From assembly GCF_011045215.1 (NCBI RefSeq), contig NZ_CP049201.1: DNA of 64,000 nt, one strand, 5' to 3'. Below are positions 1 to 28,199 of this stretch, in pieces (the stretch's first letter is position 1; each line of letters starts with the position of its first letter). The notes beneath the pieces were generated by a model. The model saw only the letters and a list, made by a program, of their open reading frames with translations. It had not been told where the DNA came from and did not search any database. Source of the DNA: Escherichia coli (GTDB lineage Bacteria; Pseudomonadota; Gammaproteobacteria; Enterobacterales; Enterobacteriaceae). The position numbers were made by a program, and so were the translations under genes.

Positions 1-514
1 AAAAGGGGCAACGCCGGAGATGGTCGAAGAGCTGGAACAGGGGCTGCAAAATTACGCCCGTGTTTTACAACAGCAAACTGAAATTAATGTCTGTCAGATG
101 GCGGGCGGCGGCGCTGCGGGCGGTATGGGTATTGCGGCGGCGGTATTCCTCAATGCGGATATTAAACCGGGTATTGAGATTGTACTGCGGGCGGTCAACC
201 TGGAGCAGGCGGTGCAGGGCGCAGCACTGGTGATCACCGGGGAAGGGCGCATCGACTCGCAAACGGCAGGCGGTAAAGCGCCGCTGGGCGTTGCGTCGGT
301 GGCGAAGCAGTTTAATGTACCGGTGATTGGGATTGCTGGTGTATTGGGTGATGGCGTGGAAGTGGTGCACCAGTACGGCATTGACGCGGTATTCAGCATT
401 TTGCCTCGTCTGGCACCTTTAGCCGAAGTGCTCGCCAGCGGTGAAACCAATCTCTTCAACAGCGCGCGAAATATTGCCTGCGCCATTAAAATAGGTCAGG
501 GAATTAAAAACTGA
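1..514 (+). CDS. glxK: glycerate 2-kinase, 3' portion (5' end lies upstream of window)
   Basis: ORF 20-514 runs open to window start; translation matches glycerate kinase C-terminal region; sits upstream of the all genes as in E. coli. Confidence 0.8.
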
Positions 515-529
515 CCCTTACCTTTAAAG

Positions 530-705
530 CGGATGCGATTTATATCGCATAAGAGTGCAGTACTCATGCCGGATGCGGCATGAGTACCATATCCTTCCTG
601 AAAATCGCGCAAATTCTATATATTGCAGAGATCATGTAGGCCTGATAAGCGAAGCGCATCAGGCTATATTGCAAAAAAAGCCACGGTATAAACCGTGGCA
701 AAATC
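530..705. repeat. cluster of REP-like palindromes and a terminal hairpin
   Basis: palindromes ACTCATGCCGGATGCGGCATGAGT, GCCTGATAAGCGAAGCGCATCAGGC and GCCACGGTATAAACCGTGGC in a convergent intergenic region. Confidence 0.5.
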
Positions 706-741
706 CAACATAGCTAAAAATAATCAGGCGAGTGGTATGAC

Positions 742-1527
742 TTAAATCTCTACGTCGCGGTTGCAATCTTTCGAGTAAATATAGCTGAACGCTTCACCAC
801 GCCCTACGCCATAACCAGCCTGTAAAGAATAAGCGCCCATAAAGATGTAATCGCCTTTTTTCACCGGGATCCAGTTATTGTCGAGGTTATAAACCCCCTG
901 ACCGGAAAGAATATAGGCACCGTGTTCCTGAACGTGTGTTTCGATATAACCATGGCTGGCACCTGGTGCAAAAGAGAGGATATGCATGTTCATATCAAAA
1001 CCTAACTCTTTGGGCAGAAAATCCAGCAGGATCACATCATCCATACCTTCATAGTGAATGCGTTCCAGTTCGCTGGCATTGCCAGAAACAAGCCACGGTG
1101 CATGGCCTTCTACCGGAACATAGCGGCGCTTATATAAAAAGATTTGGCTGTCTTCGGCCTGGGCGTTAACAAACGTCATTAAGGAGCCTGGCGGGCAATA
1201 AAGATAGCCACCTTCGCTTAAGGCAAATGTTTTGCCTTCGGCTTTGGCAGTGATATTTCCAGAGATCACATACAGGAACGTTTCAATGCCTTCGCCACCG
1301 AAGCCCTGTTGGTTGCCACCGTTTTGATGCAGTGTGACCAGATAATCAACAAAAGAGGCACCCAGCTTTGGCGTGGAGAGGATTGTCGCGTCACAATTTT
1401 CAAAGCCCGGAATAATATTTTTTACCAGACCGTCTGGTGTTAACAGTGCGAAATTACCGTGTTTCACAATCGCACGGTTAGCCAGTAAATCATCGCGGTA
1501 ACCGGTGACGTTATTTAAATATCCCAT
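742..1527 (-). CDS. allE: (S)-ureidoglycine aminohydrolase, cupin family
   Basis: 261-aa ORF; translation recognised as YlbA/AllE; adjacent to allC and allD. Confidence 0.85.
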   Translation of the reverse strand: MGYLNNVTGYRDDLLANRAIVKHGNFALLTPDGLVKNIIPGFENCDATILSTPKLGASFVDYLVTLHQNGGNQQGFGGEGIETFLYVISGNITAKAEGKTFALSEGGYLYCPPGSLMTFVNAQAEDSQIFLYKRRYVPVEGHAPWLVSGNASELERIHYEGMDDVILLDFLPKELGFDMNMHILSFAPGASHGYIETHVQEHGAYILSGQGVYNLDNNWIPVKKGDYIFMGAYSLQAGYGVGRGEAFSYIYSKDCNRDVEI

Positions 1528-1537
1528 TTATGACTCC

Positions 1538-2773
1538 TTATTTCTGCCAGGCAAGTTGATAAAGCATGAGTGCCAACGTTTTGACCCCTTTGGCAAGGTC
1601 GGTAATATTGGTGCGTTCCGCCGGGTTATGGCTGATCCCGTTGATGCTGGGAATGAAAATCATGCAGGTCGGCACGCGAGGCGCGAAAATTTGTGCGTCG
1701 TGCCCGGCACCACTGTGCATCACCCGGTAATTCAGTTTTTCGCTTTCACACAATTCTGTCAGGGTGGCGACCAGGTCCTTATTCATCGGCACCGGTTCTT
1801 CGTCCATCCATAAATCGATATCAATACCAATGTCCATTTCATCGCAAATCGCCCGCATGTCGTTTTCTAACTGTTGGGTGAAATCACGCAGCACGGCGGC
1901 GTCGGTATGACGACAATCAATGGTGAACGTGGTTTTACCCGGCACCACATTCACCGTATTCGGGCGCGGCTCTACTTTCCCAAAGGTCAGCACCAGCGGG
2001 TCGCCCATCTTTTTCGCTTTTTCGATCGCCTGATGGCAAATGCGACTGAAAGCGTAAACCGTATCACGACGATAACCCATCGGCGTGGTGCCTGCATGGT
2101 TTGATTCGCCGTTCAGCGTCACCGTATAGCGACGTTGCCCGACAATTGCATTCACCACGCCAATTGATTGCCCATTACTTTCCAGCACACAGCCCTGTTC
2201 GATATGCAGTTCGACAAAGGCTTTAATATCCTGACGCGGAGTTAGCGGGGCGTCCGGCAGAGTAAATCCGCAAGCCTTCATCGCATCGACAAAACTATTT
2301 CCTTTGGCATCACAGATATTCCGCACGTCGTCAGGATTCGCCAGCCCAAAGATATTTTTACTGCCCCAGAAAACATACGGGAAGCGGCTGCCTTCTTCTT
2401 CCGCCATCGCCACCACTTCAACCGTACGCAGCGGTGCGCCGTATTGCGTTTTCAGCCAGTCAATTGCCAGCCACGCCGCCAGCGCGCCGAATTGCCCGTC
2501 GAGGTTACCGCCGTTAACCACGGTATCGATATGCGAACCGCTCAGAACCACTTCCTGTGGATATTCGGTGCCATTCAGGCGACCGTATAAATTCCCCACT
2601 TCATCGAAACGTGTTTCCAGCCCGCTTGCTGCCATTCTTTTTTTAAATTGCTGCTGGGTTTCCAGCCATTCCGGCGAATAAAGTAAACGGGTCATCCCAC
2701 CCGTTGGGTCAGCGCCAAATGAGGAAAGCCAGGGCAGCGCTTCTTCTATGGCTTGACGAAAATGTGTAATCAT
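1538..2773 (-). CDS. allC: allantoate amidohydrolase
   Basis: start set at internal Met (MITHFRQ...) giving 411 aa; M20 peptidase-type sequence. Confidence 0.9.
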   Translation of the reverse strand: MITHFRQAIEEALPWLSSFGADPTGGMTRLLYSPEWLETQQQFKKRMAASGLETRFDEVGNLYGRLNGTEYPQEVVLSGSHIDTVVNGGNLDGQFGALAAWLAIDWLKTQYGAPLRTVEVVAMAEEEGSRFPYVFWGSKNIFGLANPDDVRNICDAKGNSFVDAMKACGFTLPDAPLTPRQDIKAFVELHIEQGCVLESNGQSIGVVNAIVGQRRYTVTLNGESNHAGTTPMGYRRDTVYAFSRICHQAIEKAKKMGDPLVLTFGKVEPRPNTVNVVPGKTTFTIDCRHTDAAVLRDFTQQLENDMRAICDEMDIGIDIDLWMDEEPVPMNKDLVATLTELCESEKLNYRVMHSGAGHDAQIFAPRVPTCMIFIPSINGISHNPAERTNITDLAKGVKTLALMLYQLAWQK

Positions 2774-2794
2774 AAGAAAGTCCTGTCTCAATAA

Positions 2795-3844
2795 TTATTG
2801 CGCAAAGGGATTTTTCGTTTCGTATGACGTGTTATAAAGCGCGTCGGAAATTAAATACTGGTAAATATCATCAACAATTTCGATGCCTTCGACGGCGGCT
2901 TTGCGTTGTTTAATATCCTGATCCTGTCCGGGATAATAAACCTGATTAAAACCGGGCGCGGGGGTAATGGCATTTAATTCGCGCATGGTCTGGCTAAGAT
3001 GTTGACGGAATAATTCGCTGGAGGAGAAAAAGTTCGGGTTAATAACTACATGTAATTGCCCCAAATTACGCCCGGCGTGTAAATCGTCATACATCGAACT
3101 AACCTGTCGCCCGAACGGTAAGCCGAGTAAGACGCCTGAGAGGACGTCAATCATCATCATCAGGCCATACCCTTTCGGCCCGGCTGCGGGGAGCAGAGCA
3201 TGTACCGCGAACGGATCGGTTGTTGGTGCACCGTTTTTATCGACCGCCCAGGTATCCGGGATAGACATATTACGCGAGCGGGCGTCGAGCACTTTTCCCC
3301 ATGCCTGTACGGTAGTCGCCATATCAAAGGTAAGGATCTCGTCGCCTTCTCCCGGCGCGGCAAAGGCCAGTGGGTTAGTACCGTAGTAAATTTCCGCGCC
3401 GCCAAACGGCACCACCATTGGATCGGACTGGCACATCGAAATGCCAATTAATCCGGCGCGGGCTGCCTGCTGCACAAAATAAGAGATTGCGCCGCTGTGA
3501 CCCATCCGGCTGATACCGACCACCGCAACGCCATTTTGCTGGGCGGTTTTGATGGCATGTTCCATACCCATTTTCGCCGCGACCTGTCCGGCGGCATTGT
3601 CGGCATGTAAAATTGCCGAGCACGGCCCGGTTTCCTCAAGACGAAACTCCGGTTCGCGGTTGGTGCCGCCTTTTGAAATGCGTTCCGCGTAGTATTCCAC
3701 GCGCACCGCGCCATGAGAGTGGATCCCTCTGGCATCGGCGTAAACCAATACTTCAGCCACGGTTGCAGCGTGCTCACGTTTTAACCCAGCCTGGCAGAGT
3801 TTATTCTCAATTAGCTGGTGGAGTGTTTCCCGACTGATTTTCAT
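2795..3844 (-). CDS. allD: ureidoglycolate dehydrogenase
   Basis: 349-aa ORF, recognised translation. Confidence 0.9.
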   Translation of the reverse strand: MKISRETLHQLIENKLCQAGLKREHAATVAEVLVYADARGIHSHGAVRVEYYAERISKGGTNREPEFRLEETGPCSAILHADNAAGQVAAKMGMEHAIKTAQQNGVAVVGISRMGHSGAISYFVQQAARAGLIGISMCQSDPMVVPFGGAEIYYGTNPLAFAAPGEGDEILTFDMATTVQAWGKVLDARSRNMSIPDTWAVDKNGAPTTDPFAVHALLPAAGPKGYGLMMMIDVLSGVLLGLPFGRQVSSMYDDLHAGRNLGQLHVVINPNFFSSSELFRQHLSQTMRELNAITPAPGFNQVYYPGQDQDIKQRKAAVEGIEIVDDIYQYLISDALYNTSYETKNPFAQ

Positions 3845-4160
3845 CTGTCTTCCTTTTTAACGACGGTGTGAAGCATGACTGCAATTAACATACAGGGAAA
3901 ATATCTGGATTATGTGATCCAGACAGGCAAAAAAATATAGTTAGAATTTATTTGATAATCCGCTCGCTTTTAACCTGGTTTTTAAAACAACCACGCTTAT
4001 TAAAAAATAACACGTAATAGCATGGCGGTTATTTGAATTCTTTTGTTAATAATCCCTGTGTGATATTCATCACCTTATTTACTCGTTGTCATCGATACCG
4101 TAATCGCCACATTAACACTGCTCGTGCAATTGCCATGGGTGCAATTTTTAAGGAGTTGTT

Positions 4161-5828
4161 ATGATCCACGCCTTTATTAAAAAAGGGTGTTTTCAGGATT
4201 CGGTCAGTTTAATGATTATTTCACGAAAACTCAGCGAATCAGAAAATGTTGATGATGTTTCCGTAATGATGGGTACGCCCGCCAATAAAGCGTTATTAGA
4301 TACCACAGGTTTCTGGCATGACGATTTTAATAACGCCACGCCGAACGATATTTGCGTGGCAATTCGTAGCGAAGTGGCGGATGCGGGGATCGCGCAGGCG
4401 ATTATGCAGCAGCTTGAAGAGGCGCTAAAACAACTGGCGCAGGGGTCAGGCAGCAGCCAGGCGTTGACGCAGGTGCGTCGCTGGGACAGTGCCTGTCAGA
4501 AATTACCCGATGCCAATCTGGCGCTGATTTCAGTGGCTGGCGAGTATGCGGCGGAGCTGGCGAATCAGGCGCTGGATCGCAACCTCAACGTGATGATGTT
4601 CTCCGATAACGTCACGCTGGAAGATGAAATCCAACTTAAAACCCGCGCGCGGGAAAAAGGCTTGCTGGTGATGGGGCCGGACTGCGGTACGTCGATGATT
4701 GCCGGCACGCCGCTGGCTTTTGCTAACGTGATGCCGGAAGGCAACATTGGCGTCATTGGCGCTTCCGGTACCGGGATTCAGGAGCTGTGCTCGCAGATTG
4801 CGCTGGCAGGGGAGGGAATTACTCACGCGATTGGCCTTGGCGGCCGCGACCTCAGCCGTGAAGTGGGCGGCATCAGTGCGCTAACAGCGCTGGAAATGCT
4901 CAGTGCAGACGAGAAAAGCGAAGTGCTGGCATTTGTTTCAAAACCACCTGCCGAAGCGGTGCGTCTGAAAATTGTTAATGCCATGAAAGCAACCGGCAAA
5001 CCGACGGTGGTGCTGTTTTTAGGTTATACCCCGGCGGTGGCCCGCGACGAGAATGTCTGGTTTGCCTCCTCGCTGGATGAGGCCGCACGCCTGGCTTGCC
5101 TGCTTTCACGCGTTACGGCGCGACGTAACGCGATAACGCCTGCCAGCAGCGGATTTATTTGCGGTTTGTATACCGGCGGTACGCTGGCTGCCGAAGCGGC
5201 GGGATTACTTGCCGGACACCTTGGCGTGGAAGCCGATGATGCCCATCATCACGGCATGATGCTCGACGCCGATGGTCACCAGATTATTGACCTCGGCGAT
5301 GATTTCTACACAGTCGGGCGTCCCCATCCGATGATCGACCCAACCTTACGCAACCAGTTAATTGCCGATCTCGGCGCTAAACCGCAAGTGCGTGTGCTGC
5401 TGCTTGATGTCGTGATTGGCTTCGGTGCGACCGCCGATCCTGCCGCCTCGCTGGTAAGCGCCTGGCAAAAAGCCTGTGCTGCGCGTTCAGACAATCAACC
5501 ACTGTATGCCATTGCCACGGTGACAGGCACTGAACGTGACCCGCAATGCCGCTCGCAGCAAATCGCCACGCTGGAAGATGCGGGGATTGCGGTCGTGAGT
5601 TCGCTACCGGAAGCCACCTTGCTGGCGGCAGCGTTAATTCATCCGCTCTCGCCTGCCGCACAGCAACACACACCGTCATTACTGGAAAACGTCGCCGTGA
5701 TTAACATCGGATTACGCAGTTTTGCGCTGGAGCTACAAAGCGCCAGCAAACCGGTTGTGCATTACCAATGGTCGCCAGTCGCCGGCGGCAATAAAAAACT
5801 GGCTCGTTTATTAGAACGTTTGCAATAA
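4161..5828 (+). CDS. fdrA: FdrA, acyl-CoA synthetase-like protein
   Basis: 555-aa ORF, recognised translation. Confidence 0.9.
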   Translation: MIHAFIKKGCFQDSVSLMIISRKLSESENVDDVSVMMGTPANKALLDTTGFWHDDFNNATPNDICVAIRSEVADAGIAQAIMQQLEEALKQLAQGSGSSQALTQVRRWDSACQKLPDANLALISVAGEYAAELANQALDRNLNVMMFSDNVTLEDEIQLKTRAREKGLLVMGPDCGTSMIAGTPLAFANVMPEGNIGVIGASGTGIQELCSQIALAGEGITHAIGLGGRDLSREVGGISALTALEMLSADEKSEVLAFVSKPPAEAVRLKIVNAMKATGKPTVVLFLGYTPAVARDENVWFASSLDEAARLACLLSRVTARRNAITPASSGFICGLYTGGTLAAEAAGLLAGHLGVEADDAHHHGMMLDADGHQIIDLGDDFYTVGRPHPMIDPTLRNQLIADLGAKPQVRVLLLDVVIGFGATADPAASLVSAWQKACAARSDNQPLYAIATVTGTERDPQCRSQQIATLEDAGIAVVSSLPEATLLAAALIHPLSPAAQQHTPSLLENVAVINIGLRSFALELQSASKPVVHYQWSPVAGGNKKLARLLERLQ

Positions 5829-5837
5829 GGGGTTCCC

Positions 5838-7097
5838 ATGTTTACATCAGTGGCGCAAGCCAATGCTGCGGTTATCGAACAAATTCGTCGCGCTCGTCCA
5901 CACTGGCTGGATGTGCAACCGGCTTCTTCACTTATCAGCGAACTAAACGAGGGCAAAACACTGCTTCACGCCGGGCCGCCAATGCGCTGGCAGGAGATGA
6001 CCGGACCCATGAAAGGGGCGTGCGTGGGCGCATGTCTGTTCGAAGGTTGGGCGAAAGATGAAGCGCAGGCGCTGGCAATACTGGAGCAGGGGGAAGTGAA
6101 CTTCATTCCTTGTCACCATGTGAATGCCGTCGGGCCAATGGGCGGTATTACTTCTGCCAGTATGCCGATGCTGGTGGTCGAGAACGTGACCGACGGCAAC
6201 CGGGCGTACTGCAACCTCAACGAAGGTATCGGCAAAGTGATGCGTTTTGGCGCTTACGGCGAAGATGTCCTGACTCGCCATCGCTGGATGCGCGATGTGT
6301 TAATGCCAGTATTAAGCGCGGCGCTGGGGCGCATGGAGCGCGGTATCGATCTTACCGCGATGATGGCGCAGGGCATTACCATGGGCGATGAGTTCCATCA
6401 ACGCAATATTGCTTCCTCAGCACTGTTAATGCGTGCGCTGGCCCCACAAATTGCTCGCCTCGATCATGATAAACAGCACATCGCGGAAGTGATGGATTTC
6501 CTCAGCGTGACCGATCAGTTCTTCCTCAACCTCGCGATGGCTTACTGCAAGGCGGCGATGGATGCTGGCGCGATGATCCGCGCAGGCAGCATCGTCACGG
6601 CAATGACCCGCAACGGCAATATGTTCGGGATTCGGGTAAGCGGGCTGGGCGAACGCTGGTTTACTGCGCCTGTAAACACTCCGCAAGGTCTGTTTTTCAC
6701 CGGCTTCTCGCAGGAGCAGGCGAACCCGGATATGGGCGATAGCGCGATTACCGAAACCTTTGGTATCGGAGGTGCGGCAATGATCGCAGCGCCTGGCGTA
6801 ACGCGCTTTGTCGGTGCGGGTGGCATGGAAGCGGCCAGGGCGGTATCTGAAGAGATGGCGGAAATTTACCTTGAACGCAATATGCAGTTGCAGATCCCAA
6901 GCTGGGATTTCCAGGGCGCGTGCCTGGGGCTGGATATTCGTCGCGTGGTAGAAACCGGCATTACGCCACTCATCAATACCGGTATCGCCCATAAAGAGGC
7001 GGGGATCGGGCAGATTGGCGCAGGCACTGTGCGGGCACCGCTGGCGTGTTTTGAACAGGCGCTGGAAGCACTGGCTGAAAGCATGGGGATTGGTTGA
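5838..7097 (+). CDS. ylbE: DUF1116 protein YlbE, intact 419-aa form
   Basis: single uninterrupted ORF. Confidence 0.8.
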
Positions 7098-7107
7098 GGA
7101 ACGCGCA

Positions 7108-7923
7108 ATGACGATCATCCATCCTCTGCTTGCCAGTAGTAGCGCACCGAATTATCGCCAGTCCTGGCGGTTAGCGGGAGTGTGGCGGCGGGCGATTAAC
7201 CTGATGACGGAAAGCGGCGAACTGTTAACGCTGCATCGTCAGGGTAGTGGTTTCGGCCCCGGAGGATGGGTGCTTCGCCGTGCGCAATTCGATGCGTTAT
7301 GCGGTGGATTATGCGGCAATGAACGACCACAGGTTGTGGCTCAAGGGATTCGCCTCGGGCGTTTCACGGTTAAACAGCCACAGCGTTATTGTTTGCTGCG
7401 TATTACGCCGCCTGCGCATCCTCAACCACTTGCAGCTGCATGGATGCAACGCGCGGAGGAAACCGGGCTTTTCGGGCCACTGGCGTTGGCGGCAAGCGAT
7501 CCGCTGCCTGCTGAGTTACGCCAGTTTCGTCACTGTTTTCAGGCCGCGCTCAATGGCGTTAAGACCGACTGGCGGCACTGGCTGGGTAAAGGCCCCGGAT
7601 TAACGCCGAGTCATGATGACACGCTGAGCGGAATGCTGCTGGCGGCCTGGTATTATGGCGCTTTAGATGCGCGCTCCGGTCGTCCGTTTTTTGCCTGTTC
7701 CGACAATCTGCAACTCGTTACCACAGCGGTGAGCGTCAGTTATTTACGTTATGCCGCGCAAGGATATTTCGCCTCGCCACTCCTGCACTTTGTTCATGCT
7801 CTGAGTTGCCCGAAACGTACCGCTGTTGCGATTGATTCGCTGCTGGCGCTGGGGCATACGTCAGGGGCAGATACGCTGCTGGGGTTTTGGCTTGGCCAAC
7901 AATTATTACAAGGAAAACCATGA
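7108..7923 (+). CDS. ylbF: YlbF, conserved protein of the fdrA-ylbE-ylbF-ybcF cluster
   Basis: start at ATG 7108 preceded by GAGGA; 271 aa; stop overlaps the next start. Confidence 0.8.
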
Positions 7924-8813
7924 AAACACTGGTTGTAGCTCTTGGGGGCAACGCCTTACTCCAGCGCGGTGAGGCGCTGACGGCAGAAAATCAATATCGC
8001 AATATCGCCAGTGCTGTACCCGCGCTGGCGCGCCTGGCCCGTTCTTATCGGCTGGCGATTGTTCACGGCAACGGGCCGCAGGTGGGGCTGCTGGCATTGC
8101 AGAATCTGGCGTGGAAAGAGGTAGAACCGTATCCGCTGGATGTGCTGGTGGCAGAAAGTCAGGGGATGATTGGCTATATGCTGGCGCAGAGTTTGAGCGC
8201 ACAGCCGCAGATGCCGCCCGTGACGACGGTGCTGACGCGCATTGAGGTTTCGCCTGATGATCCGGCGTTTTTGCAGCCAGAGAAATTTATTGGTCCGGTT
8301 TATCAGCCAGAAGAACAAGAGGCACTGGAAGCGGCTTACGGCTGGCAGATGAAACGTGATGGTAAATATTTGCGCCGGGTGGTGGCGTCTCCGCAACCGC
8401 GTAAAATTCTCGACAGCGAAGCCATCGAGTTGTTGCTCAAAGAGGGGCATGTGGTGATTTGCAGTGGCGGCGGCGGTGTGCCTGTGACGGAAGATGGGGC
8501 AGGGAGTGAAGCGGTGATTGATAAAGATCTCGCTGCTGCGTTGCTCGCTGAGCAGATTAACGCCGATGGGCTGGTGATCCTCACTGATGCTGATGCGGTA
8601 TATGAAAACTGGGGAACGCCGCAGCAACGCGCCATTCGCCATGCCACACCGGATGAGTTAGCGCCATTTGCCAAAGCCGATGGTTCGATGGGGCCGAAGG
8701 TAACGGCGGTGAGTGGTTATGTCAGAAGCCGTGGTAAACCCGCGTGGATTGGGGCGTTATCGCGAATTGAAGAGACGCTGGCGGGCGAAGCGGGGACCTG
8801 TATTTCGCTGTAG
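7920..8813 (+). CDS. ybcF: carbamate kinase-like protein
   Basis: 297 aa from ATG 7920 (ATGA overlap with ylbF); amino-acid kinase fold motifs. Confidence 0.85.
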
Positions 8814-8839
8814 TGATGAGAGCATCCAGCAATCGGTGC

Positions 8840-8935
8840 ACCATGCCTGATGCGACGCTTGACGCGTCTTATCAGGCCTACAATGGGTACCGGATCGGTG
8901 TAGGCCGGATAAGGCGTTCACGCCGCATCCGGCAA
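8840..8935. repeat. REP (repetitive extragenic palindrome) elements
   Basis: GCCTGATGCGACGCTTGACGCGTCTTATCAGGCCTAC and GTAGGCCGGATAAGGCGTTCACGCCGCATCCGGC motifs. Confidence 0.7.
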
Positions 8936-8951
8936 TCAAATGAGCACCAGG

Positions 8952-10019
8952 TTAACTGAACTTACTCTGTGCCCACATCACGCCGCTGGCATACTCCGGC
9001 GGCAGCAGCGGGATTAAGGCTTCCAGCGTCGCGGACAGACGCGATGTGTCGCTGTCGGTCAAATTCAGATGCCCCACTTTACGGCCCGGACGGACTTCTT
9101 TGTCGTACCAGTGCAGATGCACCAGCGGCAGTTTCAGCCAGTCATAATTCACATCGCTACCAATCAGATTGATCATCACCGACGGATTATTCACCACTGG
9201 TTGCGGTAACGGCAGATCGGTAATCGCCCGCAGATGTAGCTCAAACTGGCTGATGCTGGCACCGTTTTGTGTCCAGTGACCGCTGTTATGCACACGCGGA
9301 GCCAGTTCGTTGATCAGCAGACCTTGCGGGGTGACAAAACACTCCATCGCCATCACGCCCACATAGCCCAGCTCCTGCATAATCGCCGAAAGCATCTCTT
9401 CGGCTTGCGCTTGCTGCTGTGCATTGGCCTGCGGGAAAGCGACGCTGGTGCGCAAAATACCGTCCTGATGCAGGTTATGCGTCAGCGGATAAAACACGGT
9501 GCTGCCATCAAAGCCGCGCGCGCCAACCAGCGACACTTCACCAGAGAAGTTTATGCCCTGCTCGACTATACATTCGCCGTAGCATTCAGCCGGTAACTGT
9601 TCGGTTTCATCGGCACGTAAACGCCATTGACCGCGTCCGTCATAGCCACCAGTGCGACGCTTAACAATCGCCAGCTCACCTAAACGATCAAACACCGCAG
9701 GCCACTCGCTGCGTTCGGCAAGTAACTGCCACGGTGCAGTCGGCAGGTGGAGCTTATCGAAAAGCTGCTTCTGAGTCAGACGGTCAGCAATAATCGGGAA
9801 CACATCGCGGTTCACAAAGGCCGGATGGCGCGCCAGCTCGCGGGTTAATGCGGTTTCCGGCCAGCGTTCTATCTCAGCGGTAATCACGCTTTGTTGAAAA
9901 GGCACCGCCGCCGGTTCAGCGTCCAGCCCGACTGGCCAGACAGCAATGCCTAACGGTTCGCCTGCCTGACGCAGCATACGGCCTAACTGCCCGTTACCGA
10001 GGACGCAAACCTGTTTCAT
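8952..10019 (-). CDS. purK: N5-carboxyaminoimidazole ribonucleotide synthase
   Basis: 355-aa ORF, ATP-grasp protein, followed by purE. Confidence 0.9.
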
Positions 10020-10525
10020 GCCGCACCTCGCGGGTCCGGGTTTTCCAGTACTTCGTCGGTCTGGGCTTTGCGCCAGTCATTCAGACGCTGGTGCAGTTCT
10101 TTATCATGAGTCGCAAGAATTTGTGCTGCCAGTAACGCCGCGTTTGCCGCGCCAGCTTTACCAATCGCCAGCGTACCCACCGGAATGCCGCGCGGCATTT
10201 GTACGATAGAATAGAGGCTATCGACACCGCTCAGTGCGGCGCTCTGTACTGGCACGCCCAGCACCGGCACCAGCGTTTTGGCGGCAATCATACCTGGCAG
10301 GTGCGCCGCGCCGCCTGCGCCCGCAATAATCACCTGATAACCGTTCTCTTCGGCGCTTTCGGCGAAGCTGAACAGTTTATCGGGGGTGCGGTGAGCAGAA
10401 ACCACTTCAACGTGGTGCGGGACATTCAGGATTTCGAAGATTTCGGCGGCGAACTGCATGGTAGCCCAGTCGCTTTTGGACCCCATCACGATGGCGACAC
10501 GCGCCGGATTATTGCGGGAAGACAT
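10016..10525 (-). CDS. purE: N5-CAIR mutase
   Basis: start at [10 protein letters not shown]..., 169 aa; stop overlaps purK start. Confidence 0.9.
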
Positions 10526-10641
10526 GCGTCTTAAAACTCCTGTGGTGCACAACTCTCGGCTTTAGAGGGCACAGAGAATAGCACGGAAAGAGAGCAAGGA
10601 AAACGGTTGCGTGGCTGTGAAATCAGCAAAGTTGTGGGTAT

Positions 10642-11364
10642 TTAAAACGGAAAATGAATCAGTTCAACGTCATCCGCCGTGACTTTCACCATCGAACCTT
10701 CCGTATGCCAGGCACCCAGTACCACGCGAAAAGCAGGTTGCTGGTTGGCGATAAGTTCATGTACCGCCGGGCGATGGGTATGCCCGTGGATCAGCCATTG
10801 CACCTGATGTTTTTCCATCGCACTGACCACCGCGTTTTGGTTAACGTCCATGATCGCCAGCGATTTACTGCTGTTGGCTTCTTTACTGTTCGCGCGCATT
10901 CGCGCGGCAATGCGTTTGCGCACAAACAACGGCAGGGCGAGGAATAGCGTTTGCAGCCAGGGTTTGTGGACTTTGGCGCGAAAAGCCTGATAACCCGCGT
11001 CATCGGTGCACAGCATGTCGCCATGCATAATCAACACCCGACGACCATAAAGTTCGAGCACCTTTTCTTCCGGCAATAACGTCATGCCGCTTTCACGGGC
11101 AAAGCGTTTGCCGAGCAGAAAATCACGGTTGCCATGAATGAAATAACAGGGAACGCCGGAATCGGACACCGCTTTGATCGCTGCCGCCATCTGGCGATGG
11201 AGTGGGTTGGGATCGTCGTCGCCAATCCACGCTTCAAACAGATCGCCAAGAATATACAGCGCGTCGGCCTTGCGGGCTTCTCCCGCTAAAAAACGCAGAA
11301 AACCGGCGGTGATCGCCGGTTCTTCCACGCAGAGATGAAGATCTGCAATAAAGAGTGTCGCCAC
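10642..11364 (-). CDS. lpxH: UDP-2,3-diacylglucosamine hydrolase
   Basis: 240-aa calcineurin-like phosphoesterase, recognised translation. Confidence 0.9.
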
Positions 11365-11366
11365 GA

Positions 11367-11861
11367 TTACTCGCTAACGGTCACGCTTTCAATGATAACG
11401 TCTTCTTTTGGCACGTCCTGGTGCATACCGCTACGACCGGTTGCAACACCTTTGATTTTGTCTACCACGTCCATGCCTTCAACCACTTCAGCAAATACGC
11501 AGTAGCCCCAACCTTGCAGGCTTTCGCCGGAGAAGTTCAGGAAGTCGTTATCAACCACGTTGATGAAGAACTGTGCAGTTGCAGAGTGCGGAGCCTGAGT
11601 ACGGGCCATTGCCAGCGTACCACGGGTATTTTTCAGGCCGTTATTGGCTTCGTTTTTGATCGGTTCTTTGGTGGCTTTTTGTTTCATGCCCGGTTCAAAA
11701 CCGCCGCCCTGAATCATAAAGCCGTTGATAACACGGTGGAAAATGGTGTTGTTGTAAAAACCTTCGCGGCAGTAGTCCAGGAAGTTTTTAACTGTTTCAG
11801 GTGCTTTATCGTCAAAAGTTTTGATGACAATATCGCCGTGATTGGTGTGGAAAGTAACCAT
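11367..11861 (-). CDS. ppiB: peptidyl-prolyl cis-trans isomerase B
   Basis: 164-aa cyclophilin. Confidence 0.9.
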
Positions 11862-12034
11862 TTTTGCATCCTGTTCCGTTTGATTGGTGCTTCAACCCGG
11901 TTCGGGTCATATATAGGGTGGTGTTATAGCATAACCGCACGATCGGATCATCACGCAATGTATGCTGATTCGCGCGGGAAATATGGGTATTATACGCAAC
12001 TCAATTACCCACACATGTCTAAACGGAATCTTCG

Positions 12035-13420
12035 ATGCTAAAAATCTTCAATACTCTGACACGCCAAAAAGAGGAATTTAAGCCTATTCACGCCGGGGAA
12101 GTCGGCATGTACGTGTGTGGAATCACCGTTTACGATCTCTGTCATATCGGTCACGGGCGTACCTTTGTTGCTTTTGACGTGGTTGCGCGCTATCTGCGTT
12201 TCCTCGGCTATAAGCTGAAGTATGTGCGCAACATTACCGATATCGACGACAAAATCATCAAACGCGCCAATGAAAATGGCGAAAGCTTTGTGGCGCTGGT
12301 GGATCGCATGATCGCCGAAATGCACAAAGATTTTGATGCGTTGAACATTCTGCGCCCGGATATGGAGCCGCGCGCGACGCACCATATCGCAGAAATTATT
12401 GAACTCACTGAACAACTGATCGCCAAAGGTCACGCTTATGTGGCGGACAACGGCGACGTGATGTTCGACGTCCCGACCGATCCGACTTATGGCGTGCTGT
12501 CGCGTCAGGATCTCGACCAGCTGCAGGCAGGCGCGCGCGTTGACGTGGTCGACGACAAACGCAACCCGATGGACTTCGTTCTGTGGAAGATGTCGAAAGA
12601 GGGCGAACCGAGCTGGCCGTCTCCGTGGGGCGCGGGCCGTCCAGGCTGGCACATTGAATGTTCGGCAATGAACTGCAAGCAGCTGGGTAACCACTTTGAT
12701 ATCCACGGCGGCGGTTCAGACCTGATGTTCCCGCACCACGAGAACGAAATCGCGCAGTCCACCTGTGCCCATGATGGTCAGTATGTGAACTACTGGATGC
12801 ACTCCGGGATGGTGATGGTTGATCGCGAGAAGATGTCCAAATCGCTGGGTAACTTCTTCACCGTGCGTGATGTGCTGAAATACTACGACGCGGAAACCGT
12901 GCGTTACTTCCTGATGTCAGGCCACTATCGCAGCCAGCTGAACTACAGCGAAGAGAACCTGAAGCAGGCGCGTGCGGCGCTGGAGCGTCTCTACACTGCG
13001 CTGCGCGGCACAGATAAAATCGTTGCGCCTGCCGGTGGCGAAGCGTTTGAAGCGCGCTTTATTGAAGCGATGGACGACGATTTCAACACCCCGGAAGCCT
13101 ATTCCGTGCTGTTTGATATGGCGCGTGAAGTAAACCGTCTGAAAGCAGAAGATATGGCAGCGGCGAATGCAATGGCATCTCACCTGCGTAAACTTTCCGC
13201 CGTATTGGGCCTGCTGGAGCAAGAACCGGAAGCGTTCCTGCAAAGCGGCGCGCAGGCAGACGACAGCGAAGTGGCTGAGATTGAAGCGTTAATTCAACAG
13301 CGTCTGGATGCCCGTAAAGCGAAAGACTGGGCGGCGGCAGATGCGGCGCGTGACCGTCTTAACGAGATGGGGATCGTGCTGGAAGATGGCCCGCAAGGGA
13401 CCACCTGGCGTCGTAAGTAA
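12035..13420 (+). CDS. cysS: cysteine--tRNA ligase
   Basis: 461 aa with HIGH and KMSKS class I motifs. Confidence 0.95.
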
Positions 13421-13455
13421 TTGCGCTATTGCCGGATGCGAGTTTTCGCATCCGG

Positions 13456-13977
13456 TTATCGTCTGCGCCACCACAACATTCCCATCAGTAGCATCCCCGG
13501 CAACCACACCCACATCAATTCAGAAATAATCACCTGATGCCCGTACGCTGTGGTGTAACGAGACAATGCAAACGGCGCGACTTTAATCACCTGCCAGGGA
13601 GCGAAAAAGCGTTCATCTGACCACGGCCACAGCCAGCCAACACCCTTACCGCCAGTGGTTACCGAATCCAGCAAGCTGTGCGATAGCAACGAGACGGTTA
13701 AAAACAGCCAGCAGCGAATCAGCCCAGCCCTGAACCATCGGCGTCCAATCAGCACACATAACAGCGGGACAACAAACGCAAACACCAGCGAATGGGTAAA
13801 CCCGCGATGACCAAAAACATTGCCGTAAGCAAGGCCAAATTTAAACGACAATACGTCTGCGTCGGGCAGCATCGCCAGGATGATTCCGGCAAATAACAGG
13901 CGCGGAGGGATGACTTTCGAACCCAACCCTAAACCAATGCATAGGGGAACGGCGGCGTGCGTAATAACGGTTGGCAT
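13456..13977 (-). CDS. ybcI: inner membrane protein YbcI (DUF457)
   Basis: 173-aa hydrophobic ORF. Confidence 0.8.
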   Translation of the reverse strand: MPTVITHAAVPLCIGLGLGSKVIPPRLLFAGIILAMLPDADVLSFKFGLAYGNVFGHRGFTHSLVFAFVVPLLCVLIGRRWFRAGLIRCWLFLTVSLLSHSLLDSVTTGGKGVGWLWPWSDERFFAPWQVIKVAPFALSRYTTAYGHQVIISELMWVWLPGMLLMGMLWWRRR

Positions 13978-14084
13978 GATGGTCGCTTCGGCAAAATGTC
14001 GATGCTATCAGCATGGATGAACGGGGCGTAGAGGGCAAAAGTCTGAAAAGAGAACCGGCCTGTTGATACAGGCCGGGAAAGGGA

Positions 14085-14297
14085 TCAGGCAACAACCTGT
14101 ACGCTGTGACCTGCAAAACTCACTGTCTGCCCGGCGACGATTTTGCAGCGTTTGCGCGTTTCAACCGCGCCGTCGACTTTCACCTGGCCTTCGGCAATCG
14201 CGATTTTCGCCTGCGCGCCGCTTTCGCTCCAGCCTTCCAGTTTCAGCAAGTCGCACAGCTCAACGTGCGGATGTTTACCTAAAGAAAATGTCGCCAT
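14085..14297 (-). CDS. ybcJ: S4-like RNA-binding protein
   Basis: start at MATFSLGK..., 70 aa; start overlaps folD stop. Confidence 0.75.
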   Translation of the reverse strand: MATFSLGKHPHVELCDLLKLEGWSESGAQAKIAIAEGQVKVDGAVETRKRCKIVAGQTVSFAGHSVQVVA

Positions 14298-14298
14298 G

Positions 14299-15165
14299 TT
14301 ACTCACCCTGTGGATCATGATATTCAACGCACGCCTGTAGCGTGTTTTCAATCAGCGTGGCAACCGTCATCGGGCCAACGCCGCCCGGAACAGGCGTAAT
14401 GTATGAGGCGCGTTTAGCCGCGTCTTCAAACACGACGTCGCCCACAACTTTGCCATTTTCCAGACGGTTGATGCCGACATCAATCACAATTGCGCCTTCT
14501 TTGATCCAGTCACCAGGAATAAAGCCCGGCTTGCCGACGGCAACGATCAACAGATCGGCATTTTCTACGTGGTGACGCAGATTTTTAGTGAAACGGTGAG
14601 TCACGGTGGTGGTGCAACCTGCGAGCAACAGTTCCATGCTCATCGGGCGGCCAACGATATTCGATGCGCCAATCACCACGGCGTTGAGGCCGAAGGTATC
14701 AATGTTGTAACGCTCAAGCAGCGTGACAATACCGCGCGGGGTGCAGGGACGCAGACGCGGCGCGCGCTGGCACAGACGACCGACGTTATAAGGATGGAAA
14801 CCGTCTACGTCTTTGTCCGGGTGTATACGTTCCAGCACTTTGACGTTATCAATACCCGCCGGTAACGGCAGTTGAACCAGAATGCCATCGATGGTGTTGT
14901 CGGCATTCAGCGCATCGATAAGCTCCAGCAGCTCCGCTTCGCTGGTGGTTTCCGGGAGGTCATAAGAGCGGGAGACGAACCCGACTTCTTCACAAGCCTT
15001 ACGTTTGCTTGCGACATAAATTTGCGATGCAGGGTTACTACCCACCAGCACAACGGCCAGTCCTGGTGCCCGCAGTCCGGCTGCAATACGCGCCTGAACT
15101 TTTTGAGCAACTTCAGAGCGCACCTGCTGCGCAATCGTTTTACCGTCAATAATCTTTGCTGCCAT
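14299..15165 (-). CDS. folD: bifunctional methylene-THF dehydrogenase/cyclohydrolase
   Basis: 288-aa ORF, recognised translation. Confidence 0.95.
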
Positions 15166-15645
15166 CAGAGAGAGGATTCCATCTGTTACGTAGGTCGAAG
15201 GGGATGCGCCTATTTTGTCAGAAGCGGGGCGCGCTGTCAGGTTTCGTTTCAGATTTATCGCGTGAAGCGACCTCTTGCGAAGGTTAGGCGCACCGTCGCT
15301 GAGGTCGCTGAGATTGAAAGCTTCATTTTTCGTCCATGATGGCGTTGTAAATCTGGAACTGATTTATTTCCTTGTCTAAGGATTAAGATAATTTAAGAAA
15401 TACCTGACAATATAAAAAGAATTTTCAGCCTGGTAATTTACCGCTTCAGGTCTATATTTGTGTTGAATATATTTTGCGCGGAAATATTCATCTAACGGGG
15501 CTCTCTATTTTTTAGAATAGAGTGCATATTTTCAATTAAGACATTCTTAGAGGATAAAAAGGAATTTTACTACTATCAGTGTCTTAAATAAAGTAATCGG
15601 TTATATACGGATGTGGAGTCGATAAATGAGATTGAAGGAATATAT

Positions 15646-16188
15646 ATGAAATTAAGATTTATTTCGTCTGCGCTGGCTGCCGCACTATTCGCCGTTACGG
15701 GTAGTTATGCTGCCGTTGTAGATGGCGGTACAATTCACTTTGAAGGCGAACTGGTGAATGCTGCCTGTTCAGTGAATACTGACTCGGCAGACCAGGTTGT
15801 CACACTCGGTCAATATCGTACCGATATTTTCAATGCTGTTGGTAATACCTCTGCATTAATTCCATTCACCATTCAGTTGAACGACTGCGATCCTGTTGTT
15901 GCCGCTAATGCTGCCGTTGCATTTTCTGGTCAGGCGGATGCAATCAATGATAATTTATTGGCCATTGCATCCAGTACCAATACAACAACAGCAACGGGTG
16001 TCGGTATTGAAATACTTGATAATACATCCGCAATTCTCAAACCTGATGGGAATAGCTTCTCAACCAACCAGAACTTGATCCCCGGGACCAACGTTCTTCA
16101 TTTTTCTGCACGTTATAAAGGCACCGGTACAAGTGCATCAGCAGGGCAAGCAAATGCTGACGCGACTTTTATTATGAGATACGAATAA
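15646..16188 (+). CDS. sfmA: type 1-like fimbrial major subunit
   Basis: ATG 15646 after AAGGAA; signal peptide; 180 aa. Confidence 0.85.
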
Positions 16189-16407
16189 TCAAAACCACGT
16201 TGTTTTGAATTATATATCACGTCTTATAACAAAGTAATGTACCGGTTGTCTGAAGCGGTATGGTGGCAATGTAAATCGAAATCATGTTCACTTTGTATCA
16301 TGCCGCTTTATTAAATGAAAAGGGAATGATGTGTTGTAAGAAACCAAAGCAATCATTTCTTTATATTTCTTATTTTTGCCGTCAGGAATACACAAGGCGT
16401 ATTAACT

Positions 16408-17100
16408 ATGATGACTAAAATAAAGTTATTGATGCTCATTATATTTTATTTAATCATTTCGGCCAGCGTCCATGCTGCCGGAGGGATCGCATTAGGTGCC
16501 ACGCGTATTATTTATCCCGCTGATGCTAAACAGACTGCGGTATGGATTAGAAATAGCCATACCAATGAGCGTTTTCTGGTCAATTCGTGGATTGAAAACA
16601 GCAGCGGTGTAAAAGAAAAGTCATTCATCATTACACCGCCACTATTTGTTAGTGAACCCAAAAGCGAAAATACTTTGCGTATTATTTACACCGGTCCACC
16701 GCTGGCAGCAGATCGTGAGTCTCTGTTCTGGATGAATGTTAAGACGATTCCTTCGGTAGATAAAAATGCATTGAACGGCAGGAATGTTTTGCAACTGGCG
16801 ATTTTATCGCGCATGAAGTTATTTCTCCGTCCAATTCAACTACAAGAATTACCCGCAGAAGCGCCGGACACACTCAAGTTTTCGCGATCCGGTAACTATA
16901 TCAATGTTCATAATCCATCACCTTTTTATGTCACCCTGGTTAACTTACAAGTGGGCAGCCAAAAGTTGGGGAATGCTATGGCTGCACCCAGAGTTAATTC
17001 ACAAATACCCTTACCCTCAGGAGTGCAGGGAAAGCTGAAATTTCAGACCGTTAATGATTATGGTTCAGTAACCCCGGTCAGAGAAGTGAACTTAAACTAA
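16408..17100 (+). CDS. sfmC: periplasmic fimbrial chaperone
   Basis: 230 aa, PapD-like. Confidence 0.85.
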
Positions 17101-17130
17101 CCGAATCATCTGACAATATCAGAGCTAATT

Positions 17131-19692
17131 ATGAAAATACCCACTACTACGGATATTCCGCAGAGGTATACCTGGTGTCTGGCCGGAATTTGTTATTCAT
17201 CTCTTGCCATTTTACCCTCCTTTTTAAGCTATGCGGAAAGTTATTTCAACCCGGCATTTTTATTAGAGAATGGCACATCCGTTGCTGATTTATCGCGCTT
17301 TGAGAGAGGTAATCATCAACCTGCGGGCGTGTATCGGGTGGATCTCTGGCGTAATGATGAGTTCATTGGTTCACAGGATATCGTATTTGAATCGACAACA
17401 GAAAATACAGGTGATAAATCAGGTGGGTTAATGCCCTGTTTTAACCAGGTACTCCTTGAACGAATTGGCCTTAATAGCAGTGCATTTCCCGAGTTAGCCC
17501 AGCAGCAAAACAATAAATGCATCAATTTACTGAAAGCTGTACCTGATGCCACAATTAACTTTGATTTTGCAGCGATGCGCCTGAACATCACTATTCCACA
17601 GATAGCGTTGCTGAGTAGCGCTCACGGTTACATTCCGCCTGAAGAGTGGGATGAAGGTATTCCTGCTTTACTCCTGAATTATAATTTCACCGGTAACAGA
17701 GGTAATGGTAACGATAGCTATTTTTTTAGTGAGCTCAGCGGGATTAATATTGGCCCGTGGCGTTTACGCAACAATGGTTCCTGGAACTATTTTCGCGGAA
17801 ATGGATATCATTCAGAACAGTGGAATAATATTGGCACCTGGGTACAGCGCGCCATTATTCCGCTGAAAAGTGAACTGGTAATGGGAGACGGCAATACAGG
17901 AAGTGATATTTTCGATGGTGTTGGATTTCGTGGTGTACGGCTTTATTCTTCCGATAATATGTATCCTGATAGCCAGCAAGGGTTTGCCCCAACGGTACGT
18001 GGGATTGCCCGTACGGCGGCCCAGCTAACGATTCGGCAAAATGGTTTTATTATCTATCAAAGCTATGTTTCCCCCGGCGCTTTTGAAATTACAGATTTGC
18101 ACCCGACATCTTCAAATGGCGATCTGGACGTCACCATCGACGAACGCGATGGCAATCAGCAGAATTACACTATTCCGTATTCAACAGTGCCAATTTTACA
18201 ACGCGAAGGGAGTTTCAAATTTGACCTGACGGCGGGCGATTTTCGTAGCGGTAATAGTCAGCAATCATCGCCTTTCTTTTTTCAGGGCACGGCACTCGGC
18301 GGTTTACCACAGGAATTTACTGCCTACGGCGGGACGCAATTATCTGCCAATTACACCGCCTTTTTATTAGGGCTGGGGCGCAACCTCGGGAACTGGGGCG
18401 CAGTGTCGCTGGATGTGACCCATGCGCGCAGTCAGTTAGCCGACGACAGTCGTCATGAGGGGGATTCCATTCGCTTCCTCTATGCGAAATCGATGAACAC
18501 CTTCGGCACCAATTTTCAGTTAATGGGTTACCGCTATTCGACACAAGGTTTTTATACCCTTGATGATGTTGCGTATCGTCGAATGGAGGGGTACGAATAT
18601 GATTACGATTATGACGGTGAGCATCGGGATGAACCGATAATCGTGAATTACCACAATTTACGCTTTAGCCGTAAAGACCGTTTGCAGTTAAATATTTCAC
18701 AATCACTTAATGACTTTGGCTCGCTTTATATCTCTGGTACCCATCAAAAATACTGGAATACTTCGGATTCAGATACCTGGTATCAGGTGGGGTATACCAG
18801 CAGCTGGGTTGGCATCAGTTATTCACTCTCATTTTCGTGGAATGAATCTGTAGGGATCCCCGATAACGAACGTATTGTCGGACTTAATGTTTCAGTGCCT
18901 TTCAATGTTCTGACCAAACGTCGCTACACCCGGGAAAATGCGCTCGACCGCGCTTATGCCTCCTTTAACGCCAACCGTAACAGCAACGGGCAAAATAGCT
19001 GGCTGGCAGGTGTAGGTGGGACCTTACTGGAAGGCCACAACCTGAGTTATCACGTAAGCCAGGGTGATACCTCGAATAATGGGTATACGGGCAGCGCCAC
19101 GGCAAACTGGCAGGCCGCTTACGGTACGCTGGGGGTCGGGTATAACTACGACCGCGATCAACATGACGTTAACTGGCAGCTGTCTGGCGGTGTGGTCGGA
19201 CATGAAAATGGCATAACGCTGAGCCAGCCTTTAGGGGATACCAATGTCTTGATTAAAGCGCCTGGCGCAGGCGGTGTACGCATTGAAAATCAAACTGGCA
19301 TTTTAACCGACTGGCGCGGCTATGCGGTGATGCCGTATGCCACGGTTTATCGGTATAACCGTATCGCGCTTGATACCAATACGATGGGGAATTCCATCGA
19401 TGTTGAAAAAAATATTAGCAGCGTTGTGCCGACGCAAGGCGCGTTGGTTCGTGCCAATTTTGATACCCGCATAGGCGTGCGGGCGCTCATTACCGTTACC
19501 CAGGGCGGAAAACCGGTGCCGTTTGGATCACTGGTACGGGAAAACAGTACCGGAATAACCAGTATGGTGGGTGATGACGGGCAAGTTTATTTAAGTGGTG
19601 CGCCATTGTCTGGTGAATTACTGGTTCAGTGGGGAGACGGCGCGAACTCACGCTGCATTGCGCACTATGTATTGCCGAAGCAAAGCTTATAG
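17131..19692 (+). CDS. sfmD: fimbrial outer-membrane usher
   Basis: 853-aa ORF in usher position. Confidence 0.85.
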
Positions 19693-19752
19693 CAAGCCGT
19701 CACTGTTATTTCGGCAGTTTGCACACATCCTGGCTCATAAAGGAAATTATCA

Positions 19753-20760: not shown

Positions 20761-20770
20761 GGTACGGAGA

Positions 20771-21286: not shown

Positions 21287-21288
21287 TA

Positions 21289-21921: not shown

Positions 21922-22163
21922 AGTTACCAGTCTCATAGGAGCGGACAATTTTCCGTTAGGGCGGTAAATTGTACTTTGATACATGAAAATACGGGTTTTC
22001 TTGATTCAGACGCGCAGCGGTGTGCGTTTGTTTGCCGCTATAGCGAAATAAATCAGAAAATCAGACGCGGTCGTTCACTTGTTCAGCAACCAGATCAAAA
22101 GCCATTGACTCAGCAAGGGTTGACCGTATAATTCACGCGATTACACCGCATTGCGGTATCAAC

Positions 22164-22240: not shown

Positions 22241-22242
22241 TT
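22196..22242. repeat. attL core: 47-bp direct repeat (3' half of argU)
   Basis: identical to 43685-43731. Confidence 0.85.
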
Positions 22243-22255
22243 ACAATTCAATCAG

Positions 22256-23646: not shown

Positions 23647-26262
<2,616 letters not shown>

Positions 26263-26272
<10 letters not shown>

Positions 26273-28179: not shown

Positions 28180-28199
28180 TTTGCTGCTCCTCATCATAT

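What the first reader, a model, noticed from the sequence alone, without database searches (positions are those of the whole stretch)
5838..7097. ylbE present as one intact 419-aa ORF
In E. coli K-12 this gene is, as I recall, annotated as a frameshifted pseudogene in two parts. The single ORF here marks this strain as non-K-12 and as carrying the functional allele.
Basis: established knowledge. Interest (0 to 1): 0.2.

Follow-up and report, generated by a model that had tools for sequence, protein, structure and literature searches.

The report
Ordinary intact ylbE (allG) gene
The 419-codon ylbE gene is really there and intact, but so is the copy in today's E. coli K-12 reference (identical protein), so this is an ordinary core gene of the allantoin pathway and not a strain marker.

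Summary
Observation confirmed: window 5838..7097 (+) is one 419-aa ORF. It is ylbE, now named allG, a subunit of oxamate carbamoyltransferase (oxamic transcarbamylase). It lies in an intact allF-allG-allH-allK operon next to allECD.

The "two-part pseudogene" is a legacy of old K-12 records. The current MG1655 reference NC_000913.3 annotates an intact 1260-bp ylbE. Its protein is 419/419 identical to the window's, with 13 nucleotide differences, all synonymous. DH10B and BW25113 are also intact. Among 5,417 matching complete E. coli records, only W3110 (NC_007779.1) and three others carry the frameshift allele (A at gene position 114, G4 instead of G5 at 252-256). The window has G and G5, like MG1655.

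The strain is non-K-12, but for other reasons. It shows 98.0-98.6% nucleotide identity to K-12 along the collinear backbone and carries a different prophage remnant at argU. "Functional allele" is well supported: the protein equals the MG1655 protein shown by deletion and purified-enzyme assay to be needed for activity. The finding is already known and of low interest.

The parts
5838..7097 (+). ylbE = allG, 419 aa, DUF1116/AllG subunit of oxamate carbamoyltransferase; intact
   Evidence: ORF. Pfam PF06545 at E 7.9e-98. 419/419 aa identical to K-12 MG1655 YlbE, with 13 synonymous nucleotide differences. Present in 5,420 of 5,426 E. coli genomes.
6089..6093 (+). G5 homopolymer run (gene positions 252-256); site of the legacy K-12 'frameshift' (G4 in the W3110 record and the old MG1655 record)
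   Evidence: Alignment: window, MG1655 v3, DH10B and BW25113 all have GGGGG, while W3110 has GGGG. Literature: insertion at base 253 and +G at 547,831 of the old reference.
5951..5951 (+). Gene position 114: G in the window and in current K-12 records, A (silent) in the W3110/legacy record; second marker of the legacy allele
   Evidence: alignment; silent substitution at position 114, A->G at 547,694.
4161..5828 (+). fdrA = allF, 555 aa, succinyl-CoA-synthetase-alpha-like subunit of the enzyme; first gene of the operon
   Evidence: Pfam CoA_binding and Ligase_CoA. NCBIfam NF004760 FdrA at 1042 bits. 8 aa differences from K-12 and no internal stop.
7108..7923 (+). ylbF = allH, 271 aa, third subunit
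   Evidence: Pfam PF11392 AllH at E 4.5e-29. 0 aa differences from K-12. ATG lies 10 nt after the allG stop, with a GAGGAA motif ahead of it.
7920..8813 (+). ybcF = allK, catabolic carbamate kinase, 297 aa; start overlaps the allH stop by 4 nt (ATGA)
   Evidence: NCBIfam NF006926 carbamate kinase at 621 bits. 2 aa differences from K-12.
3845..4160 (.). allD-fdrA divergent intergenic region (316 nt); presumed promoter region of allFGHK
   Evidence: Same length as in K-12, with 9 substitutions. Two weak sigma-70-like matches at 3885-3947, not above the shuffled expectation. The operon structure is taken from PMC11326118.
742..3844 (-). allE (742..1527), allC (1538..2773), allD (2795..3844): the preceding steps of anaerobic allantoin degradation; all intact
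   Evidence: Collinear with K-12 b0515-b0517, with 2, 9 and 3 aa differences and no internal stops.

Best explanation
Window 5838..7097 is the ordinary, intact, species-wide E. coli core gene ylbE, renamed allG. Its product is one of three subunits (AllF-AllG-AllH) of oxamate carbamoyltransferase, also called oxamic transcarbamylase. In anaerobic allantoin catabolism this enzyme phosphorolyses oxalurate to oxamate plus carbamoyl phosphate. The co-transcribed carbamate kinase AllK then converts carbamoyl phosphate and ADP to ATP, NH3 and CO2. This gives the cell nitrogen and one ATP.

Shown here: the gene's intactness, its identity to the K-12 protein, the operon context and purifying selection. 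Shown in the literature, for a protein identical to this one: the requirement for allG and the activity of purified AllFGH. Inferred: that the operon is expressed and active in this particular strain. Also not resolved experimentally: the role of AllG within the complex (it is predicted to form a homodimer that pairs with the AllF dimer).

It exists in the legacy MG1655 (U00096.2) and W3110 records. It has been corrected in the current MG1655 reference. An intact ORF therefore carries no strain information.
For: - ORF and coordinates.
- Family: PF06545 AllG at 326.7 bits.
- K-12 comparison: NC_000913.3 annotates ylbE b4572 as an intact 1260-bp CDS. The window differs from it at 13 nucleotides and 0 amino acids.
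- Five-way alignment: only the W3110 record lacks one G of the G5 run and has A at position 114.
- W3110 is flagged 'frameshifted', while DH10B and BW25113 are intact and share protein accession WP_000495367.1, as does EC1515, whose ylbE DNA is 100% identical to the window.
- The legacy allele is present in only 4 of 5,417 matching records.
- 99 of the 100 rows listed in the two searches span exactly 1260 bp.
- Purifying selection: 13 synonymous and 0 nonsynonymous differences from K-12; 41 nucleotide but only 3 amino-acid differences from the most divergent E. coli allele.
- Operon: allF, allG, allH and allK are all intact, with 9-nt and 10-nt gaps and a 4-nt overlap. No Rfam element lies inside the operon. 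The pattern scan finds no promoter-like site there and its terminator-like matches are below the shuffled expectation.
- Function: in PMC11326118, MG1655 wild type converts 19.5 mM allantoin to 17.7 mM oxamate, and the allG deletion gives 0. Purified AllF-AllG-AllH has activity, with a KM for carbamoyl phosphate of 1.3 mM.
- History of the record: PMC4404585, PMC4759930, PMC5460176, PMC3045373 and EcoGene 3.0, PMC3531124.
Against: - Nothing in the sequence argues against this reading.
- Expression and activity in this strain were not measured.
- In the cited paper, single-gene complementation of the allG deletion did not restore oxamate (0 mM). The genetic evidence for allG alone is therefore weaker than the triple-gene complementation and the purified complex.
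- The window's AllF differs from K-12 AllF at 8 residues, and their effect on the complex is untested. The same group reported that fdrA SNPs can redirect flux.
Confidence: 0.95

Rival explanations
1. One reading: K-12 carries a frameshifted ylbE, so an intact ORF is a diagnostic marker that this strain is not K-12.
For: The W3110 RefSeq record is still annotated 'frameshifted'. Papers using the older MG1655 reference list ylbE as a pseudogene.
Against: The current MG1655 reference, DH10B and BW25113 all have the intact 1260-bp gene. Among the rows listed, further K-12 laboratory records (a resequenced MG1655, C600, J53, ME8067, ER1709) show a 191-bp span, meaning G5. The protein is identical to the window's.
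Confidence: 0.02
2. The G4 frameshift is a real biological polymorphism among K-12 stocks, caused by slippage in the G5 run, rather than a sequencing error. Under this reading some K-12 lineages, such as true W3110, genuinely lack AllG.
For: [quoted passage not shown] The site is a homopolymer run. Three additional assemblies, CIT, LIM and CAR, carry it.
Against: [quoted passage not shown] The G4 always travels with a second, silent change 138 nt away (A114), which slippage does not explain. CIT, LIM and CAR have the same coordinates for this segment as the W3110 record. By inference, that fits consensus sequences built on the old reference. Only 4 of 5,417 records carry the allele. Either way, the reading of the window is unchanged.
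Confidence: 0.12
3. The ORF is intact but silent or decaying in this strain, i.e. a cryptic gene.
For: No expression data exist for this strain. The promoter-like matches upstream of fdrA are no better than chance.
Against: There are 0 nonsynonymous against 13 synonymous differences from K-12, and 3 amino-acid against 41 nucleotide differences from the most divergent allele. All seven pathway genes are intact. The gene is kept in 5,417 of 5,426 genomes at 80% coverage or more. In MG1655 the same operon is active during anaerobic growth on allantoin.
Confidence: 0.03

Closest known systems
E. coli K-12 MG1655 YlbE/AllG (b4572, YP_009029994.1 / WP_000495367.1), subunit of oxamic transcarbamylase AllFGH (Kim & Kim 2024, PMC11326118)
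   Same: Amino-acid sequence identical at 419/419. Same start and stop, same operon order allF-allG-allH-allK, and same neighbours allECD and purK.
   Different: 13 synonymous nucleotide substitutions. The partner subunit AllF differs at 8 residues and AllK at 2.
Legacy K-12 ylbE pseudogene allele (U00096.2; W3110 NC_007779.1, 'frameshifted')
   Same: Same locus and otherwise near-identical sequence.
   Different: The legacy allele has G4 instead of G5 at gene positions 252-256 and A instead of G at position 114. This gives an 86-aa fragment plus a 344-aa downstream frame. The window has neither change.
PDB 3clq, 'uncharacterized protein' (421 aa), a solved DUF1116 homologue
   Same: Full-length sequence homology at E 3.6e-112, residues 2-414 against 7-418. 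A fold is therefore available for the family.
   Different: Deposited without a function. No complex with AllF or AllH partners is implied by the deposit. I did not analyse the structure.
Classical transcarbamylases (ATCase PyrB, OTCase ArgI/ArgF, YgeW)
   Same: Same reaction class: carbamoyl transfer to or from carbamoyl phosphate.
   Different: No sequence similarity according to PMC11326118, and no OTCase/ATCase Pfam domain in AllF, AllG or AllH. The enzyme needs three different subunits. AllF resembles succinyl-CoA synthetase alpha.

Membership tests
AllG / DUF1116 (Pfam PF06545), oxamate carbamoyltransferase subunit | Match to the family profile above the curated gathering score | tested here: met
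   326.7 bits against a cut-off of 27, profile positions 1-215 of 215.
AllG / DUF1116 (Pfam PF06545), oxamate carbamoyltransferase subunit | Orthology to the experimentally characterised E. coli AllG | tested here: met
   419/419 aa identical to MG1655 YlbE, the protein used in PMC11326118.
AllG / DUF1116 (Pfam PF06545), oxamate carbamoyltransferase subunit | Gene context: allF-allG-allH-allK operon next to allECD | tested here: met
   Pfam and NCBIfam hits for the neighbouring genes. Collinear with K-12 b0515-b0521, all intact.
AllG / DUF1116 (Pfam PF06545), oxamate carbamoyltransferase subunit | Oxalurate + Pi <-> oxamate + carbamoyl phosphate activity of the AllFGH complex | not testable with these tools
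   Known only from the literature, for the identical AllG protein.
Legacy K-12 'ylbE pseudogene' allele | G4 instead of G5 at gene positions 252-256, giving a -1 frameshift | tested here: not met
   The window has GGGGG at 6089..6093.
Legacy K-12 'ylbE pseudogene' allele | Silent A at gene position 114 | tested here: not met
   The window has G at 5951.
E. coli K-12 lineage (strain identity of the window) | Essentially identical nucleotide sequence to K-12 along the backbone | tested here: not met
   98.0-98.6% identity over the collinear blocks 1-23514 and 47628-63997. ylbE itself has 13 SNPs, whereas MG1655, DH10B and BW25113 are identical to one another.
E. coli K-12 lineage (strain identity of the window) | DLP12 cryptic prophage with the K-12 gene content at argU | tested here: not met
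   Only about five short blocks of the 21.4-kb insert match DLP12.
E. coli K-12 lineage (strain identity of the window) | State of ylbE (intact or frameshifted) as a discriminator | tested here: inconclusive
   The character does not discriminate. Current K-12 records are intact, like the window.

The most novel reading that the evidence does not exclude
The G5 run in allG (window 6089..6093) might be a genuine slippage hot-spot. Under that reading the G4 frameshift in the W3110 and old MG1655 records is a real, recurrent loss-of-function variant of the oxamate branch of allantoin catabolism in some laboratory stocks, not a sequencing error. My evidence does not exclude it. It would not change what is in this window.
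Probability: 0.1. Interest if true: 0.1.

Novelty: already known. Interest (0 to 1): 0.04.

Why it matters
It matters little biologically. The gene is a conserved core gene with an experimentally assigned function, and the window's protein is identical to the characterised one.

The practical value is a caution. The "ylbE pseudogene of K-12" belongs to superseded records (U00096.2/NC_000913.2, and still the W3110 record). Anyone who maps reads to the old reference repeatedly "rediscovers" it as a mutation. It should not be used as a K-12 versus non-K-12 marker.

The window's strain is non-K-12, but that follows from about 1.5-2% backbone divergence and a different argU prophage.

Tried and rejected
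- I tried to read Freddolino et al. 2012 (PMC3256642), Fabich et al. 2011 (PMC3125843) and Hayashi et al. 2006 (PMC1681481) for the primary statements about the ylbE correction. None is held in the library. I relied instead on EcoGene 3.0 and four papers that quote the two changes.
- NCBIfam has no model hit for AllG or AllH at E<=0.001. Only Pfam names them.
- I considered whether the antisense ORFs inside ylbE (230, 112 and 94 aa) could be genes. They have no Pfam match at E<=0.1, so I rejected this.
- I looked for internal promoters, terminators or RNA elements within the operon. There is nothing above chance and no Rfam hit.
- I tried to name the source strain. The ylbE DNA is 100% identical to ten records, including EC1515, but the flanks are only 98.97% identical to EC1515. 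The best 25-kb matches are 98.5-99.1%. No close relative was identified.
- I did not run the large protein-homology searches, structure prediction or fold search. The protein is identical to a characterised one and a close homologue is already in the PDB, so the cost was not justified.
- The DGF-298 paper mentions ylbE only as part of a deliberate deletion, so it says nothing about the W3110 allele.

Full report
**Observation.** The window contains exactly the ORF described: 5838..7097 on the + strand, ATG to TGA, 419 aa. It starts 9 nt after the stop of the preceding gene, behind an AAGGGG motif. It is not a chance ORF.
- It matches Pfam PF06545, "Oxamate carbamoyltransferase subunit AllG" (formerly DUF1116), at 326.7 bits against a gathering score of 27.
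- Its DNA matches an annotated ylbE in 5,420 of 5,426 complete E. coli genomes at 96.7-100% identity.
- Three long antisense ORFs within it have no family match.

- The current MG1655 reference NC_000913.3 annotates ylbE (b4572, YP_009029994.1) as an intact 1260-bp CDS with the same start and stop.
- The window differs from it at 13 of 1260 nucleotides. All 13 are synonymous, so the proteins are 419/419 identical.
- DH10B and BW25113 are also intact and carry the same protein accession, WP_000495367.1.
- The W3110 RefSeq record NC_007779.1 does still carry a 1259-bp ylbE flagged "frameshifted".
- In a five-way alignment W3110 differs from the other K-12 records at two places only: A instead of G at gene position 114 (silent), and GGGG instead of GGGGG at positions 252-256.
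- The window has G at 5951 and G5 at 6089..6093, the same as current MG1655.

**History of the pseudogene annotation.**
- Papers that called variants against the older MG1655 reference report just these two changes. [quoted passage not shown] See also PMC4759930 and PMC3045373.
[quoted passage not shown] The passage does not name ylbE.
- A 190-nt probe carrying both legacy variants is matched perfectly by only 4 of 5,417 records: W3110 and the strains CIT, LIM and CAR. In those three the segment has the same coordinates as in the W3110 record. By inference, they may be consensus sequences built on the old reference.
- Every other row listed in that search, including several K-12 laboratory strains (a resequenced MG1655, C600, J53, ME8067, ER1709), has the extra G.
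- Among the 100 rows listed in the two ylbE searches, 99 span exactly 1260 bp. The exception, AR_0085, has a real deletion fusing fdrA and ylbE.
- An intact ylbE is therefore the species-wide norm, K-12 included.

**Is the strain nevertheless non-K-12?** Yes, but on other evidence.
- The window is collinear with K-12 542.5-565 kb and 590-606.5 kb at 98.0-98.6% nucleotide identity. The K-12 records compared here are identical to one another in ylbE apart from the two W3110 differences.
- Downstream of argU (22164..22240) the window carries a 21.4-kb insert that shares only a few blocks with K-12's DLP12 prophage.

**What the gene is and how it works.**
- The neighbours are:
  - fdrA/allF (4161..5828; CoA_binding and Ligase_CoA domains, succinyl-CoA-synthetase-alpha-like);
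  - ylbF/allH (7108..7923; PF11392);
  - ybcF/allK (7920..8813; carbamate kinase equivalog at 621 bits).
  - allE, allC and allD lie divergently upstream.
- All seven genes are intact and collinear with K-12.
- Kim & Kim 2024 (PMC11326118) showed in MG1655 that allF, allG and allH together encode the long-orphan oxamic transcarbamylase (oxalurate + Pi <-> oxamate + carbamoyl phosphate).
  - Wild type turns 19.5 mM allantoin into 17.7 mM oxamate, and the allG deletion gives none.
  - The triple deletion is rescued only by all three genes.
  - Purified His-tagged AllF-AllG-AllH is active, with KM values of 1.3 mM for carbamoyl phosphate and 36.9 mM for oxamate.
  - allK follows in the same operon and yields ATP from carbamoyl phosphate.
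- Because the window's AllG is residue-for-residue the assayed protein, "functional allele" is well supported.
- Sequence evolution agrees. There are 13 synonymous and 0 nonsynonymous changes against K-12, and 41 nucleotide but only 3 amino-acid changes against the most divergent E. coli allele found.
- A caveat is that single-gene complementation of the allG deletion failed in that paper.
- Still inferred: expression in this strain, the effect of the 8 AllF substitutions, and AllG's precise role. In the paper, AlphaFold predicts an AllG homodimer, but the stoichiometry and active site are unresolved.
- A close homologue has a solved but functionally unannotated structure, PDB 3clq, at E 3.6e-112.

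**Comparison with known systems and novelty.** This is the known gene in its known context with a known function. It meets every testable membership criterion for AllG (profile, orthology, operon context). It fails both criteria for the legacy pseudogene allele. It is already known.

The only open point is whether the G4/A114 state in the W3110 record is an error or a real stock polymorphism. I put the "real polymorphism" reading at about 0.1, because the G4 is always linked to a second change that slippage would not explain and because the old MG1655 record was corrected. Neither outcome alters the reading of this window.

**Verdict.** Interest is about 0.04.

Noticed in passing
window 22242..43682 (argU tRNA-Arg at 22164..22240): A 21.4-kb insert lies directly after argU. 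It begins with an intD-like integrase (22256..23419, - strand). It is absent from E. coli EC1515, where argU abuts envY. It shares only a few blocks with K-12's DLP12 cryptic prophage. No complete E. coli RefSeq genome holds 80% or more of it in one place; the best is 75%, in strain TW14425. It looks like a mosaic lambdoid prophage remnant that carries ompT at its far end.
   Followed up: partly
window 36347..36545 (+): Rfam match to IS009 (RF02111) at 227.6 bits, inside the prophage region and overlapping the tail-fibre-assembly-like ORF at 36004..36585. Not examined further.
   Followed up: no
window 601..735 (+): Rfam hits to the small RNAs ES036/CssrF (601..643, barely above the gathering score) and STnc480 (669..735) in the glxK-allE intergenic region.
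   Followed up: no
window ~8814..8950 (ybcF-purK intergenic): REP/BIME-like palindromic repeats. K-12 has one more repeat unit here than the window. This is ordinary copy-number variation of REP elements.
   Followed up: partly
window 54609..54612 (cusC-cusF intergenic): About 127 bp present in K-12 between cusC and cusF is missing from the window. Otherwise the cus-pheP-ybdG-nfsB-ybdK region is collinear with K-12 at about 98.1% identity.
   Followed up: no
window 1..22242 compared with L006 (E. coli EC1515): The ylbE DNA is 100% identical to EC1515 and nine other records, but the surrounding 22 kb is only 98.97% identical to EC1515. The best 25-kb matches in 5,426 genomes are 98.5-99.1%. The backbone appears mosaic or recombined, and the source strain has no close relative among the complete RefSeq genomes.
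   Followed up: partly
L002 (W3110 NC_007779.1) 3582..4840; NZ_CP026026-28: The W3110 RefSeq record and the assemblies of strains CIT, LIM and CAR still carry the legacy ylbE frameshift allele, at identical coordinates. This may be record error propagated by reference-guided assembly. It is a data-quality point, not biology.
   Followed up: partly
L008 (E. coli AR_0085, NZ_CP029741.1) 2774..4439: A genuine natural disruption: a deletion removes the 3' end of fdrA and the first ~65% of ylbE, and both are annotated as partial pseudogenes. This shows what a real loss of the locus looks like.
   Followed up: no
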